A stretch of DNA of 23,325 nucleotides from a virus. Its lineage: Duplodnaviria > Heunggongvirae > Uroviricota > Caudoviricetes. Position numbers and translations under genes: made by a program. The notes below the pieces were generated by a model. It worked only from the letters and a program-made list of their open reading frames with translations. It searched no databases and was not told the origin of the DNA. Positions 1,083-16,892 of the stretch are shown piece by piece; position 1 is the stretch's first letter, and each line of letters starts with the position of its first letter. The stretch lies in IMG/VR virus record IMGVR_UViG_2511231170_000001. The stretch is one strand, 5' to 3'.

Positions 1083-1090
1083 TATTGTTC
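1083..1090. repeat. Target-site duplication TATTGTTC, left copy, of the IS66-family element
   Basis: Identical 8-mer at 15765-15772 immediately outside the other terminal inverted repeat; 8 bp is the IS66-family duplication length. Confidence 0.75.
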
Positions 1091-1172
1091 GTAAGCGTAA
1101 AGCCAATGCCGTCTGTAACTCCTGATCCTTGCAGACTAAATTAGAGCTCCTTCTAAATTAGACGGAGTTCTA

Positions 1173-1394
1173 TTGATGGATAAACCTACAGACTGGCGCT
1201 CTGGGACGCGCCGGATATTTTCTAATGAATTTAAGCTTCATATGGTTGAACTGGCTTCGAAACCAAATGCCAATGTTGCACAACTGGCCCGGGAACATGG
1301 CGTTGATAACAACCTGATTTTTAAATGGCTACGTCTCTGGCAAAGAGAAGGACGTATTTCTCGTAGAATGCCTCCAACTATTCCATTACGGTAA
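1173..1394 (+). CDS. tnpA: IS66-family accessory protein (orfA/TnpA-like), possibly truncated
   Basis: First gene of the IS66 unit, 70 bp upstream of tnpB; helix-turn-helix-like N-terminus. Confidence 0.55.
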   Translation: MMDKPTDWRSGTRRIFSNEFKLHMVELASKPNANVAQLAREHGVDNNLIFKWLRLWQREGRISRRMPPTIPLR

Positions 1395-1463
1395 AATGAC
1401 ACTGGGAAATCCTTCACCAGAGCTGCTCACGGTGTTGATCCGTGAACTGACCGGGAGGGGAAG

Positions 1464-1814
1464 ATGATCTCACTCCCATCAGGTACCCGCATCTGGCTCG
1501 TGGCCGGCGTTACCGATATGCGTAAATCCTTCAACGGTCTGGGAGAACAGGTACAACATGTGCTGGATGAGACCCCCTTCTCAGGTCACCTGTTTATCTT
1601 TCGTGGCCGACGGGGTGACACTGTTAAAATACTCTGGGCCGATGCTGATGGTCTGTGCCTGTTCACCAAACGCCTGGAGGAAGGCCAGTTTATCTGGCCT
1701 GCGGTGCGTGACGGTAAGGTATCCATTACCCGCTCGCAACTGGCAATGCTCCTCGATAAGCTGGACTGGCGTCAGCCAAAAACATTCCGCCTTAACTCAC
1801 TGACAATGTTGTAA
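1464..1814 (+). CDS. tnpB: IS66-family accessory protein TnpB
   Basis: 116-aa ORF beginning MISLPSGTRIWLVAGVTDMRKSFNGL, recalled as characteristic of IS66 TnpB. Confidence 0.9.
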   Translation: MISLPSGTRIWLVAGVTDMRKSFNGLGEQVQHVLDETPFSGHLFIFRGRRGDTVKILWADADGLCLFTKRLEEGQFIWPAVRDGKVSITRSQLAMLLDKLDWRQPKTFRLNSLTML

Positions 1815-1817
1815 AAA

Positions 1818-3250
1818 ATGCCTGGCCGCATTATAAAAACGGCCATGAGTCAGAAATACCTCATTCGCATTGCAGAACTGGAAAGCCAGCTCCGTCAGAA
1901 AGACCAGCAACTGAGTCTGGTTGAAGAGACGAAGACCTTCCTGCGCTCTGCACTGGCACGTGCCGAAGAAAAGATCGAAGAAGATGAACGGGAAATAGAA
2001 CATCTGCGGGCTCAGATAGAAAAACTGCGCCGGATGCTGTTCGGTACCTGTTCTGAAAAACTGCGTCGTGAAGTTGAACAGGCTGAGGCCCTGCTGAAAC
2101 AACGCGAACAGGACAGCGATCGTTACAGTGGGCGGGAAGACGATCCACAGGTTCCCCGCCAGTTGCGGCAGTCGCGCCATCGTCGTCCGTTCCCGGCACA
2201 CCTTCCCCGTGAAATACACCGTCTGGAGTCTGAAGAAAGCTGTTGCCCGGAGTGTGGCGGTGAGCTGGATTATCTGGGGGAAGTCAGTGCAGAACAACTG
2301 GAACTGGTGAGCAGCGCTCTGAAAGTGATCCGCACAGAACGGGTAAAAAAAGCCTGTACAAAATGTGACTGCATCGTTGAAGCACCGGCGCCGTCCCGCC
2401 GCGATAGAGCGTGGTATCGCGGGCCCCGGATTACTTGCCCGCGTGTTTACGGGAAAATACTGCGAACACCTGCCACTGTATCGTCAGAGTGAAATCTTTG
2501 CCCGACAGGGTGTCGAACTGAGCCGTGCATTACTCTCCAACTGGGTTGACGCGTGCTGCCAGTTAATGACGCCGCTGAATGATGCCCTGTATCGTTATGT
2601 GATGAATACCCGCAAGCTTCACACTGACGACACACCGGTAAAGGTACTGGCACCGGGCCTGAAAAAGACGAAAACAGGGCGCATCTGGACGTATGTCCGG
2701 GATGATCGCAATGCGGGTTCGTCATCTCCTCCGGCGGTCTGGTTCGCGTACTCACCGAACAGGCAGGGGAAACACCCGGAGCAACACCTCCGCCCCTTCC
2801 GGGGTATCCTGCAGGCGGATGCGTTCACAGGTTACGACAGGCTGTTCAGTGCAGAACGCGAAGGTGGTGCGCTGACAGAAGTTGCGTGCTGTGCTCATGC
2901 CCGGAGAAAAATCCACGATGTATACATCAGCAGCAAAAGTGCGATGGCAGAAGAAGCCCTGAAGCGAATCAGTGAACTGTACGCCATCGAGGATGAAATA
3001 CGGGGATTACCAGAGTCAGAGCGTCTTGCAGTCAGGCAGCAGCGAAGCAAAGCGTTACTGACGTCGCTGCATGAATGGATGGTGGAGAAGAATGGCACGC
3101 TGTCGAAAAAATCCAGACTGGGCGAAGCGTTCAGCTATGTACTGAATCAGTGGGACGCCCTCTGTTATTACCGTGATGACGGTCTGGCGGAGGCGGACAA
3201 TAACACAGCGGAAAGAGCGCTTCGTGCAGTCTGTCTCGGAAAGAAAAATT
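1818..3250 (+). pseudogene. tnpC: IS66-family transposase TnpC, frameshifted near 2395-2410 and cut at 3250 by the IS110-family insertion
   Basis: N-terminal coiled-coil and CPECGG...CTKCD zinc-finger region in one frame (1818..2492), the ...GPGLLA...HLPLYRQ core in another (2365..); the ...RALRAVCLGKKN end is followed by unrelated sequence. Confidence 0.85.
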
Positions 3251-15236: not shown

Positions 15237-15485
15237 GCATTTAATTATAAATATCGTGAGTTGATGATATAGCCCAAAACCACAGGGGCCAGCCTCATAG
15301 CAGGAAAGAATGTTTCCGTAAAGTCCCTGCAATTTCTGAAATAATCGACGTACAGCCTGGGCTTCGTTGTTAATCGTACCATAATAACGAACTTCGCCAA
15401 GCCGTTCAGGTGCAGCAATAGCAACCGCCAACGTTTCTTTATGCACATCCAGCCCGACGTAAGCCGCAATATTTTCCGAATGCAT
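15237..15485 (-). pseudogene. IS110-family transposase, N-terminal 77 codons, separated from the rest of the gene by the island
   Basis: MHSENIAAYVGLDVHKETLAVAIA...CYEAGPCGFGLYHQLT matches the IS110-family N-terminus; the ORF terminates at TAA 15231-15233 just past the junction. Confidence 0.8.
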
Positions 15486-15546
15486 GATGACCTCCTCTGG
15501 AATATCCCACCAATGCTATAGTGAGTATATAAAGGTCATATCATCT
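15237..15546 (-). mobile_element. IS110/IS1111-family element, 5' portion
   Basis: Contains the transposase start and the subterminal GGTCATA; abuts the resumption of IS66 tnpC. Confidence 0.65.
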
Positions 15547-15734
15547 ACGTGTTCTTCGGTAGCGATCACGGCGGCGAGCGTGGAGCACTGCTGTACGGGC
15601 TGATCGGCACCTGCCGTCTGAACGGTATCGATCCGGAAGCGTATCTGCGCCATATTCTGAGCGTACTGCCGGAATGGCCCTCCAACCGTGTTGACGAACT
15701 CCTGCCATGGAACGTAGTTCTCACCAATAAATAA
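15547..15734 (+). pseudogene. tnpC: IS66-family transposase TnpC, C-terminal remnant
   Basis: ...FFGSDHGGERGALLYGLIGTCRLNGIDPEAYLRHILSVLPEWPSNRVDELLPWN; joining 3250 to 15547 restores the frame (KKN-Y-VFFGSD). Confidence 0.8.
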
Positions 15735-15764
15735 GCGTCAATACGGTGCTCCGTTGACGCTTAC

Positions 15765-15772
15765 TATTGTTC
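15765..15772. repeat. Target-site duplication TATTGTTC, right copy
   Basis: Matches 1083-1090. Confidence 0.75.
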
Positions 15773-15778
15773 TGCAGC

Positions 15779-16892
15779 TAAATAGCTGCGCGGAATAGTA
15801 GATCACTTTGAGGGAACTCAGCCCGGATTGTGCGATCTGATCAATCGCCAAATCAAAACAAATCACCAACCGGACTGAGCAATGCCGATCATAGCACCAA
15901 TTTCCCGTGACGAACGACGCCTGATGCAGAAAGCCATCCATAAAACACACGATAAAAATTATGCCCGCAGACTGACTGCCATGCTGATGCTGCACCGGGG
16001 CGACCGTGTCAGCGACGTTGCCAGAACGCTCTGCTGCGCCCGTTCCTCTGTTGGACGCTGGATTAACTGGTTCACGCAGTCGGGTGTTGAGGGACTGAAA
16101 TCATTACCTGCCGGGCGTGCCCGTCGCTGGCCGTTTGAGCATATCTGCACACTGTTACGTGAGCTGGTAAAACATTCTCCCGGCGACTTTGGCTACCAGC
16201 GTTCACGCTGGAGTACAGAACTGCTGGCAATAAAAATCAATGAGATAACCGGTTGCCAGTTAAATGCCGGAACCGTTCGCCGCTGGTTGCCGTCTGCGGG
16301 GATTGTGTGGCGAAGGGCTGCGCCAACTCTGCGTATCCGTGACCCGCATAAAGATGAAAAGATGGCAGCAATCCATAAAGCACTGGACGAATGCTGCGCA
16401 GAGCATCCGGTCTTTTATGAAGATGAAGTGGATATCCATCTTAATCCCAAAATCGGTGCGGACTGGCAACTGCGCGGACAGCAAAAACGGGTGGTCACGC
16501 CGGGACAGGTAAAGCCAGCTATGTGGGCGGCAACAGCAAAAGTTCGGCGCTGTTCATCAGCCTGCTGAAACGGCTTAAAGCGACATACCGTCGGGCGAAA
16601 ACCATCACGCTGATCGTGGACAACTACATTATCCACAAAAGCCGGGAAACACAGAGCTGGCTGAAGGAGAACCCGAAGTTCAGGGTCATTTATCAGCCGG
16701 TTTACTCGCCATGGGTGAATCATGTTGAACGGCTATGGCAGGCACTTCACGACACAATAACGCGTAATCATCAGTGCCGCTCAATGTGGCAACTGTTGAA
16801 AAAAGTTCGCCATTTTATGGAAACCGTTAGCCCATTCCCCGGAGGCAAACATGGGCTGGCAAAAGTGTAGCGGTATTAAGCGCAGCTATTTA
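15779..16892 (+). mobile_element. IS630-family insertion sequence with a disrupted transposase
   Basis: Terminal inverted repeats CTAAATAGCTGCGC (15778-15791) and its complement (16880-16893); IS66 sits 5 bp from its left end. Confidence 0.75.
15882..16870 (+). pseudogene. IS630-family transposase, two frames (15882..16568 and 16523..16870) joined across a short internal deletion near 16500
   Basis: N-terminal helix-turn-helix region and C-terminal catalytic region are both IS630-like; the frame changes between ...VVTPGQ and GKASYVGGNSKSS. Confidence 0.8.

What the first reader, a model, noticed from the sequence alone, without database searches (positions are those of the whole stretch)
1083..16892. 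Three-level nested insertion: island inside IS110-family element inside IS66, next to IS630
IS66 (TSD TATTGTTC at 1083-1090 and 15765-15772) sits 5 bp from the IS630 end; IS66 tnpC is split by a 12,296-bp insert whose removal restores the frame (KKN-Y-VFFGSD); that insert is an IS110-family element of about 1.45 kb plus the roughly 10.8-kb island. The order of events is readable from the sequence, and the nest means the satellite is embedded in mobile DNA that could move or amplify it.
Basis: partly seen in the sequence, partly recalled or inferred. Interest (0 to 1): 0.5.

Follow-up and report, generated by a model that had tools for sequence, protein, structure and literature searches.

The report
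Phage satellite nested inside two transposons
In an E. coli genomic island, a phage satellite sits inside an RNA-guided insertion sequence that itself sits inside another insertion sequence; every layer is a known kind of element and the earlier stages survive in other strains, so this is a clean but ordinary record of serial insertions.

Summary
An IS66-family element (1091-15764, 8-bp duplication TATTGTTC) lies 6 bp from a deleted IS630 copy (15779-16892). Its tnpC is split by ISEc45, a 1,447-bp IS110-family element of IS1111 type. The ISEc45 transposase gene is in turn split by a 10,845-bp EcCICFT073-type satellite (PICI, 4411-15255).

Each stage exists in complete E. coli genomes:
- Empty site: strains 23CRST035 and A39.
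- IS66 plus IS630: strain 104, PAR and others.
- IS66::ISEc45: CFT073, Nissle 1917, ATCC 25922.
- Full nest: 6 genomes, all at one locus.

ISEc45 and its relatives in other phyla sit in the GRKN|W/Y-LF codons of IS66-family transposase genes wherever the flanks could be read. Two short guides in their 3' non-coding RNA covary with that site, as expected of a seekRNA or bridge RNA. Also, the satellite's usual attachment site is the abgR-smrA spacer (68 genomes). That site is degenerate in this host, so the ISEc45 copy is a one-off secondary-site integration.

The suggestion that the nest could move or amplify the satellite is unsupported. Both enclosing transposase genes are broken, and the junction occurs at one locus only. 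Interest is low to moderate.

The parts
1083..1090 (.). Left copy of the 8-bp IS66 target duplication, TATTGTTC
   Evidence: Present as a single copy in the empty site of strain 23CRST035.
1091..3250 (+). IS66-family element, left part. It holds the left inverted repeat (GTAAGCGT...), a frameshifted tnpA (1176-1467), tnpB (1464-1814) and the 5' part of tnpC (1845-3250, with a frameshift near 2400).
   Evidence: PGAP annotation of the identical genome. NCBIfam scores: IS66_TnpB 119.9 bits; transpos_IS66 443 bits after frame correction and removal of the insert. Inverted repeat.
3251..4410 (-). ISEc45 (IS110 family, IS1111 type), 3' portion. It holds the right end with subterminal repeat TATGACCTTT (3253-3262), a 252-nt non-coding region (3251-3502) and the C-terminal ~300 transposase codons (3503-4410).
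   Evidence: 100% identical to intact ISEc45 of ATCC 25922. Boundaries are shared by independent copies. NF033542, IS110 family RNA-guided transposase, 278.9 bits.
3365..3483 (-). seekRNA / bridge-RNA-like region of ISEc45. The guide against the top strand, AAAAGAAUU, is at 3456-3464. The guide against the bottom strand, CACGUAG, is at 3421-3427. A CCUC/GAGG stem closes the loop (3467-3470 with 3414-3417). A GGGG/CCCC hairpin follows, then GAAUAAGAG (3366-3374).
   Evidence: Alignment of 13 relatives and its consensus fold. Pair counts: 95.7% of cells paired and 5 pairs with compensatory changes, against at most 55% paired when partners are slid. The guides fit their own flanks better than shuffled flanks, p about 3e-4 and 5e-4.
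4407..4410 (.). GTGA crossover at attL, shared by ISEc45 and the satellite
4411..15255 (+). EcCICFT073-type satellite (PICI), 10,845 bp. Gene order: int (4585-5814), alpA, icd-like, DUF4222, RepA-type helicase (8781-10196), SSB, lambda E-like capsid (11690-12745), D-like decoration (12757-13092), Nu1-like small terminase (13725-14267).
   Evidence: Annotation and Pfam. Its ends match the same satellite at abgR-smrA in strain VG12A2 exactly, out to GTGA on both sides.
15256..15259 (.). GTGA crossover at attR
15256..15546 (-). ISEc45 5' portion. It holds transposase codons 1-77 (start codon at 15485), the 61-nt left end (15486-15546) and the subterminal repeat AAAGGTCATA (15531-15540).
15547..15764 (+). 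IS66-family element, right part. It holds the last 62 codons of tnpC plus the stop codon (stop 15732-15734) and the right inverted repeat ending ...ACGCTTAC.
15765..15772 (.). Right copy of the IS66 target duplication, TATTGTTC
15779..16892 (+). IS630 copy (1,110 bp, 15781-16890) with its duplicated TA at each end, inserted in CTAG. It has a 43-bp internal deletion and a frameshifted transposase gene.
   Evidence: Empty site TGCAGCTAGGCAATC. 20-nt inverted repeat, 90% complementary (I11). NF033545 matches both halves of the transposase. Relatives at 97.9% identity span 1,157 bp for this 1,114-nt query.

Best explanation
The region records four successive, mechanistically different insertions into a tRNA-Asp (aspV) genomic island of a B2-type E. 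coli.

1. An IS66-family element transposed into the DUF5983-DUF957 spacer and made an 8-bp duplication. An IS630 landed 6 bp away in a CTAG and duplicated TA. The order of these two events is unknown.

2. ISEc45, an IS1111-type RNA-guided DEDD element, inserted into IS66 tnpC. The cut lies between the first and second base of the Y/W codon of the conserved GKKN|Y/W-(V/L)F motif. This was not a chance hit. The RNA from ISEc45's 3' non-coding region carries two short guides that pair with the two strands of exactly this site.

3. An EcCICFT073-type satellite then integrated through its own tyrosine integrase at GTGA, inside codons 76-78 of the ISEc45 transposase gene. This is a secondary attachment site. 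The normal site, core AATATCGTGA in the abgR-smrA spacer, reads GCCTTGTGAT in this host.

Shown: the structure, the boundaries, the intermediate states, the target specificity and the covariation of guides with targets. Inferred: that the RNA is made and guides insertion; that the integrase, not another recombination route, made the last insertion; and that loss of the normal site favoured the secondary one.

The nest is a fossil. Both enclosing transposase genes are inactivated. Only the satellite looks intact.
For: Structure and stages:
- Six complete genomes carry the whole window at 99.8-99.9% identity.
- ATCC 25922 and many others carry the same locus minus exactly 10,845 bp, with an intact 377-aa ISEc45 transposase.
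- Strains 104, PAR, 20Ec-P-124 and others have uninterrupted IS66 directly next to IS630 at this locus.
- Strains 23CRST035 and A39 have the empty site.

ISEc45 targeting:
- Independent copies sit at the same tnpC position in IS66 members only 88.5-91.5% identical to this one: the UTI89 chromosome and the O104:H4 pAA plasmid. A further copy lies in an IS66 remnant in EcPF5.
- 483 of the 596 genomes with the ISEc45 right end have it joined to this type of tnpC.
- Relatives with 56-77% amino-acid identity sit at the same motif. They come from Sodalis, Klebsiella, Nitrosomonas, Sphingomonas, Planctomycetota and others. Three of four restored flanks tested score above the IS66 transposase cut-off; the fourth is a fragment below it.
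- The guides covary with the flanks: CGT/CGT, ACC/ACC, GGT/GGT, GCC/GCC, and GCAAAAA against GCAAGAA. A conserved stem with compensatory changes encloses them.
- The order of the guides (top-strand match 5' of the bottom-strand match) and their downstream location fit IS1111-type seekRNAs (PMC11187229).

Satellite:
- The same element, at 99.2-99.5% identity, ends at the same GTGA on both sides in the abgR-smrA spacer.
- 68 genomes have that junction, against 6 in ISEc45.
- In the host, the abg operon is replaced and the core is changed at 5 of 10 positions.
Against: - The ISEc45 non-coding RNA folded alone is no more stable than shuffles (z = -0.53) and its lowest-energy fold differs from the consensus. 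No Rfam family matches. The RNA's role therefore rests on comparative data and on analogy with ISEc11.
- The permutation tests ignore relatedness among the elements.
- The ISEc45 site resembles attP no better than the host's degenerate primary site does: 18 of 34 positions each. Why ISEc45 was chosen is unexplained.
- At least two ISEc45 copies lie outside IS66, in intS and near yqhC, so targeting is not absolute.
Confidence: 0.88

Rival explanations
1. One reading: the nest is a vehicle. IS66 or ISEc45 can still move or amplify the enclosed satellite, for example when supplied in trans by other copies.
For: The IS66 ends and both ISEc45 ends, with the guide-RNA region, are intact. Two of the six genomes show a second place matching the ISEc45 half of the query. 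ISEc11 moved a 745-bp cargo, and a mini-element moved with transposase and RNA supplied in trans (PMC11187229).
Against: tnpA and tnpC are frameshifted, tnpC is split and the ISEc45 transposase gene is split. The attL junction occurs once per genome, in 6 genomes, always at the aspV locus. No cargo of about 11 kb is documented for this family.
Confidence: 0.05
2. ISEc45 is a regular, alternative attachment site of this satellite family, so the satellite systematically uses a multicopy mobile target.
For: The crossover uses the same GTGA as the canonical site. The ISEc45 site has an imperfect inverted repeat around it, TATATTCATC...GATGATATA.
Against: 596 genomes carry ISEc45, but only 6 have the satellite in it, all at one locus with identical flanks, which fits a single event. 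68 genomes use abgR-smrA. Only 4 contiguous bases are shared with attP.
Confidence: 0.04
3. The satellite reached ISEc45 by illegitimate or microhomology-mediated recombination, not by its integrase.
For: Only 4 bp of identity at the junctions.
Against: Both satellite ends are exactly those produced at the canonical site, and ISEc45 is restored to the base. That precision is expected of a site-specific recombinase and not of illegitimate recombination.
Confidence: 0.04
4. ISEc45 landed in tnpC by chance, and the recurrence reflects vertical inheritance of one old insertion.
For: Many carriers (CFT073, Nissle 1917, ATCC 25922) share the same locus and are related.
Against: The same codon position is hit in IS66 members 88.5-91.5% identical, on chromosome and plasmid, and in distant phyla with diverged elements and matching guide changes.
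Confidence: 0.02

Closest known systems
IS1111-type IS110-family elements guided by a seekRNA or bridge RNA (ISEc11, ISKpn4, ISPa11; Siddiquee et al. 2024, PMC11187229)
   Same: DEDD transposase, subterminal inverted repeats, no target duplication and a non-coding region downstream of the transposase gene. That region has a top-strand match 5' of a bottom-strand match, and the two overlap at the insertion point. Natural reprogramming is visible as covariation between guide and target.
   Different: The target here is the GRKN|W/Y-LF coding motif of IS66-family transposase genes. I did not find this target reported: ISEc45 appears only in sequence lists of that paper and in nine survey papers. 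No RNA or transposition data exist for ISEc45.
[quoted passage not shown]
   Same: An RNA-guided insertion sequence whose target is a conserved coding motif of another insertion sequence's transposase gene.
   Different: A different subgroup (non-coding region upstream, guides in the opposite order) and a different prey family (IS3, not IS66).
EcCICFT073, the prototype Gram-negative PICI (Fillol-Salom et al. 2018, PMC6092414)
   Same: int-alpA module, a replication module, a capsid homologue plus a head-decoration homologue, and a size near 11 kb.
   Different: PICIs are defined partly by unique, specific attachment sites. This copy sits at a non-canonical site inside an insertion-sequence gene. 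It also carries a Nu1-like small terminase. Induction by a helper phage was not tested.
Secondary attachment-site integration of lambda (my own knowledge, not checked here)
   Same: A tyrosine integrase uses a weakly similar site when the primary attB is missing or altered. The crossover register is kept.
   Different: Observed here in natural isolates. Causality from the degenerate attB is inferred only.
IS66 family and IS630
   Same: IS66: GTAAGCG ends, an 8-bp duplication and tnpA-tnpB-tnpC. IS630: insertion at CTAG with TA duplicated (the CTAG preference is from my own knowledge).
   Different: Both copies are defective. The IS66 copy is 2,378 bp after restoration and was not assigned to a named ISfinder element; it is 88.5% identical to a copy that PGAP labels ISEc43.

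Membership tests
IS66 family | tnpA, tnpB and tnpC genes | tested here: met
   NF033819 (TnpB) scores 119.9 against a cut-off of 50. NF033517 (TnpC) scores 443.4 against 180 after frame correction and removal of the insert. The TnpA fragment scores below its cut-offs (62 against 150; 55 against 74), consistent with a frameshifted remnant.
IS66 family | Terminal inverted repeats beginning GTAAGCG, and an 8-bp target duplication | tested here: met
   The first 8 bases of both ends are identical. TATTGTTC is duplicated here and single in the empty site.
IS110 family, IS1111 type | DEDD (RuvC-like) transposase of the family | tested here: met
   NF033542, 'IS110 family RNA-guided transposase', scores 278.9 against a cut-off of 140 on the restored 377-aa protein. 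PGAP names it ISEc45.
IS110 family, IS1111 type | No terminal inverted repeats and no target duplication; subterminal inverted repeats present | tested here: met
   Removing 1,447 bp restores tnpC to the base. Only the 2-nt core (CT, or TT in the target) is shared at the ends. The 10-bp subterminal repeat is TATGACCTTT / AAAGGTCATA.
IS110 family, IS1111 type | Non-coding region downstream of the transposase gene encoding a guide RNA with matches to both target strands, the top-strand match first | tested here: met
   The 252-nt 3' region holds guides at 3456-3464 and 3421-3427. Covariation with flanks and a conserved closing stem are shown across 13 relatives. Expression and protein binding of the RNA were not testable.
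IS110 family, IS1111 type | Circular intermediate with a promoter formed at the joined ends | not testable with these tools
   A TTGACA lies 11 nt from the right end (3262-3267, minus strand). No experiment was possible.
IS630 family | IS630-type transposase, terminal inverted repeats and TA duplication | tested here: met
   NF033545 matches both halves, 127 and 102 bits against a cut-off of 100. The 20-nt inverted repeat is 90% complementary. The empty site CTAG becomes CTA...TAG. The copy lacks 43 bp.
PICI (EcCICFT073 type) | Integrase plus AlpA regulator, own replication module, roughly 10-15 kb, no tail or lysis genes | tested here: met
   Pfam finds Phage_integrase with Arm-DNA-bind_3, Phage_AlpA, AAA_25 (RepA-type helicase) and SSB. 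The 10,845 bp contain 19 annotated genes, none for tail or lysis.
PICI (EcCICFT073 type) | Capsid and head-decoration homologues, as in EcCICFT073 c1499 and c1500 | tested here: met
   Phage_cap_E at 4.9e-50 and HDPD at 1e-17. The published description is in PMC6092414.
PICI (EcCICFT073 type) | Unique, specific attachment site | tested here: not met
   The family's site is the abgR-smrA spacer, used in 68 genomes. This copy lies in ISEc45 with only GTGA shared. The feature fails for this copy, not for the element type.
PICI (EcCICFT073 type) | Induction by a helper phage and packaging into phage-derived particles | not testable with these tools
   This needs experiments.

The most novel reading that the evidence does not exclude
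The ISEc45 clade is a dedicated hyperparasite of IS66-family elements, conserved from Enterobacteria to Planctomycetota. Its RNA guides co-evolve with the prey's GRKNWLF codons. A satellite lodged inside such an element becomes cargo of an RNA-guided insertion sequence. An intact ISEc45 copy could then deliver that cargo in trans into any IS66 copy, including those on plasmids. That would give a phage satellite a route of spread that needs no helper phage.
Probability: 0.05. Interest if true: 0.6.

Novelty: new member of a known kind. Interest (0 to 1): 0.3.

Why it matters
As a nest, it matters little. Serial insertion of mobile elements into one another is common. The IS66::ISEc45 stage has been in public genomes such as CFT073 for years.

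Its value is as a worked example with every intermediate preserved, and for two by-products:
- A whole clade of IS1111-type RNA-guided elements appears programmed against a conserved motif of IS66 transposase genes, with natural guide-target covariation. This adds a second 'insertion sequence that hunts insertion sequences' to the reported ISEc21-IS3 case. It also gives a ready natural series of reprogrammed guides.
- A PICI, a class defined by fixed attachment sites, is caught at a secondary site in a host whose normal site is degenerate. The integration inactivated the RNA-guided transposase gene, in principle reversibly.

Tried and rejected
- The 26-nt direct repeats at 4538-4563 and 15154-15179 (D1) looked like att sites. 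Comparison with ATCC 25922 and VG12A2 shows both lie inside the satellite, so they are probably arm-type integrase sites. The true crossover is GTGA.
- Rfam at gathering thresholds found nothing in the window.
- Folding the ISEc45 non-coding RNA alone gave no signal, z = -0.53. Only the comparative analysis was informative.
- Searches for a genome with IS630 but no IS66, or IS66 but no IS630, found none, so their order stays open.
- The genome-contig scan returned few close ISEc45 copies, so I took E. coli flanks from individual hits instead.
- I asked whether the ISEc45 site resembles attP more than the host's degenerate primary site does. It does not: 18 of 34 positions each.
- I first considered naming the IS66 copy ISEc43. 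I dropped this because it is only 88.5% identical to the copy that PGAP labels ISEc43.
- Literature searches for ISEc45, and for IS110 with IS66 and bridge RNA, gave no description of this target.
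Full report
**Where the window comes from.** The whole 23,325-bp window matches six complete E. coli chromosomes at 99.8-99.9% identity: GABEEC132, 400625, SCU-112, DA61218, GIMC1410 and E02. In GABEEC132 it lies about 120 bp downstream of tRNA-Asp (aspV). It sits inside a CP4-like island whose conserved genes (DUF4942, DUF957, DUF5983, cbtA/yeeU, radC, antirestriction, DUF932) flank the finding. The nest therefore has four levels, not three.

**IS66 and IS630.** TATTGTTC is at 1083-1090 and 15765-15772. The sequence between begins GTAAGCGT and ends ACGCTTAC.
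- Strain 23CRST035 has the same island with ...GATATTGTTCTGCAGCTAGGCAATC... at this point.
- That one sequence shows the 8-bp IS66 duplication.
- It also shows that IS630 entered the CTAG 6 bp further on and duplicated TA (15779-80 and 16891-92).

NCBIfam confirms IS66 TnpB and, after frame correction and removal of the insert, TnpC. It confirms the IS630 transposase in two halves. Both elements are defective:
- PGAP flags tnpA and tnpC as frameshifted.
- The IS630 copy lacks 43 bp relative to 97.9%-identical copies.

No genome has IS66 without IS630 at this site, or the reverse. Their order is therefore unresolved.

**ISEc45 inside tnpC.** Deleting 3251-15546 restores ...LGKKNYVFFGSD....
- The restored 518 nt are 100% identical to uninterrupted tnpC in many genomes.
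- Some of those are at this very locus beside IS630, such as strains 104, PAR and 20Ec-P-124.

ATCC 25922, CFT073, Nissle 1917 and many others have the same locus with an intact element that PGAP names ISEc45. ISEc45 is 1,447 bp long and has these features:
- a 61-nt left end;
- a 377-aa transposase matching the IS110 family RNA-guided transposase model at 278.9 bits;
- a 252-nt 3' non-coding region;
- 10-bp subterminal inverted repeats.

**ISEc45 is aimed at IS66.** The insertion was targeted, not random.
- Other ISEc45 copies sit at the same position of tnpC in IS66 members that are only 88.5-91.5% identical to this one. These are on the UTI89 chromosome and on the O104:H4 pAA plasmid. Another copy lies in an IS66 remnant in EcPF5.
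- One copy lies in intS, at a similar sequence, AAGAAGAACT|TCCCG.
- Of 596 genomes with the ISEc45 right end, 483 have it joined to this type of tnpC.
- Relatives with 56-77% amino-acid identity sit at the homologous G(R/K)KN|W-LF codons. They come from Sodalis, Klebsiella, Nitrosomonas, Sphingomonas, Methyloceanibacter, Limnoglobus and Planctomycetota assemblies.
- Three of four restored flanks tested score above the IS66 transposase cut-off. The fourth is a fragment below it.

**The guide RNA.** In the 3' non-coding region, a stem CCUC...GAGG encloses two short segments. The 5' one (AAAAGAAUU in ISEc45) can pair with the top strand just right of the insertion point. The 3' one (CACGU-AG) is identical to the top strand just left of it, so it pairs with the bottom strand.
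- Both change with the target across relatives: CGT/CGT, ACC/ACC, GGT/GGT, GCC/GCC, and GCAAAAA against GCAAGAA.
- Own-flank pairing exceeds shuffled pairings, with p about 3e-4 and 5e-4. These tests are not corrected for relatedness.
- The stem shows compensatory changes: 95.7% of cells are paired, against at most 55% when partners are slid.
- The downstream location, the order of the guides and their overlap at the insertion point are what Siddiquee et al. describe for IS1111-type seekRNAs. The same paper reports ISEc21 targeting IS3-family transposase codons, a close precedent (PMC11187229).

Caveats:
- The RNA folded alone is unremarkable.
- Rfam has no match.
- I found no paper stating the ISEc45 target.

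**The satellite inside ISEc45.** Alignment with ATCC 25922 puts the island at 4411-15255, with GTGA on both sides. It splits the transposase gene at codons 76-78. The island encodes the following:
- a tyrosine integrase with an arm-binding domain;
- AlpA;
- a RepA-type helicase and an SSB;
- lambda E-like capsid and D-like decoration proteins;
- a Nu1-like small terminase.

This is the architecture described for EcCICFT073, which has capsid and decoration homologues (PMC6092414).

The same element, at 99.2-99.5% identity apart from a swapped capsid module, lies between abgR and smrA in strain VG12A2. It ends at the same GTGA on both sides, within a shared core AATATCGTGA.
- 68 genomes carry that junction.
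- Only the six carry the ISEc45 junction, once each.
- In GABEEC132 the abg operon is replaced and the corresponding core reads GCCTTGTGAT.

The simplest reading is one integrase-mediated integration at a secondary site, in a lineage lacking a good primary site, inherited clonally. The ISEc45 site is no closer to attP than the degenerate primary site is. The choice of site is therefore not explained.

**Verdict.** The idea that the nest mobilises the satellite has no support, because every enclosing transposase gene is broken and the arrangement occurs at a single locus. The elements are all of known kinds. The IS66-directed targeting of the ISEc45 clade is a modest new example of RNA-guided target choice.

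Noticed in passing
window 3365-3483 (-); loci L006, L008-L011, L013-L018, L075: ISEc45 and distant relatives in several phyla sit in the GRKN|W/Y-LF codons of IS66-family tnpC wherever the flanks could be read. Two guide segments in their 3' non-coding RNA covary with the flanks.
   Followed up: yes
L003 13997-24399; L087 30500-30565: The satellite's usual attachment site is the abgR-smrA spacer, core AATATCGTGA, used in 68 genomes. In the host of this window the abg operon is replaced and the core is changed at 5 of 10 positions.
   Followed up: yes
window 4538-4563 and 15154-15179: A 26-nt direct repeat, CGGTGTAGTTAATGGTGTAGTTAATT (a tandem 12-mer), lies near each end but inside the satellite. 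These are probably arm-type integrase binding sites, not the att core.
   Followed up: partly
window 10194-10388: Iteron-like repeats (AAAAAGTGGGTAGTAAAAGTGGGGAG twice, plus 19-mers spaced 83-85 bp apart) lie just downstream of the RepA-type helicase gene. This is probably the satellite's replication origin.
   Followed up: no
window 11069-13548: The capsid, decoration and adjacent genes have no megablast match to the otherwise 99%-identical satellite in VG12A2. This points to a module exchange between satellites.
   Followed up: no
window 3503-4441 (-): A 312-aa open reading frame starts inside the satellite's left end and reads through attL into the C-terminal ~300 codons of the ISEc45 transposase. 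It lacks the N-terminal part of the catalytic domain.
   Followed up: no
window 940-1134 (-): The annotated DUF957 gene runs across the IS66 left end, so its start codon lies inside IS66. The insertion replaced the gene's original 5' end.
   Followed up: no
L084 1643-3087; hit H173 (CFSAN067215): ISEc45 copies occur outside IS66: one in the prophage integrase gene intS (flank AAGAAGAACT|TCCCG) and one next to yqhC. These look like off-target insertions at partly matching sites.
   Followed up: partly
hits H10, H24, H161, H171 (C 691-04A, OZ546984): Some strains have about 195 extra bases in the region of the ISEc45 right end at this same locus, seen as two-piece matches spanning 795 bp for a 600-nt query.
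   Followed up: no
window 15781-16890: The IS630 copy carries a 43-bp internal deletion that frameshifts its transposase gene. The identical deleted copy is shared by many strains at this locus.
   Followed up: partly
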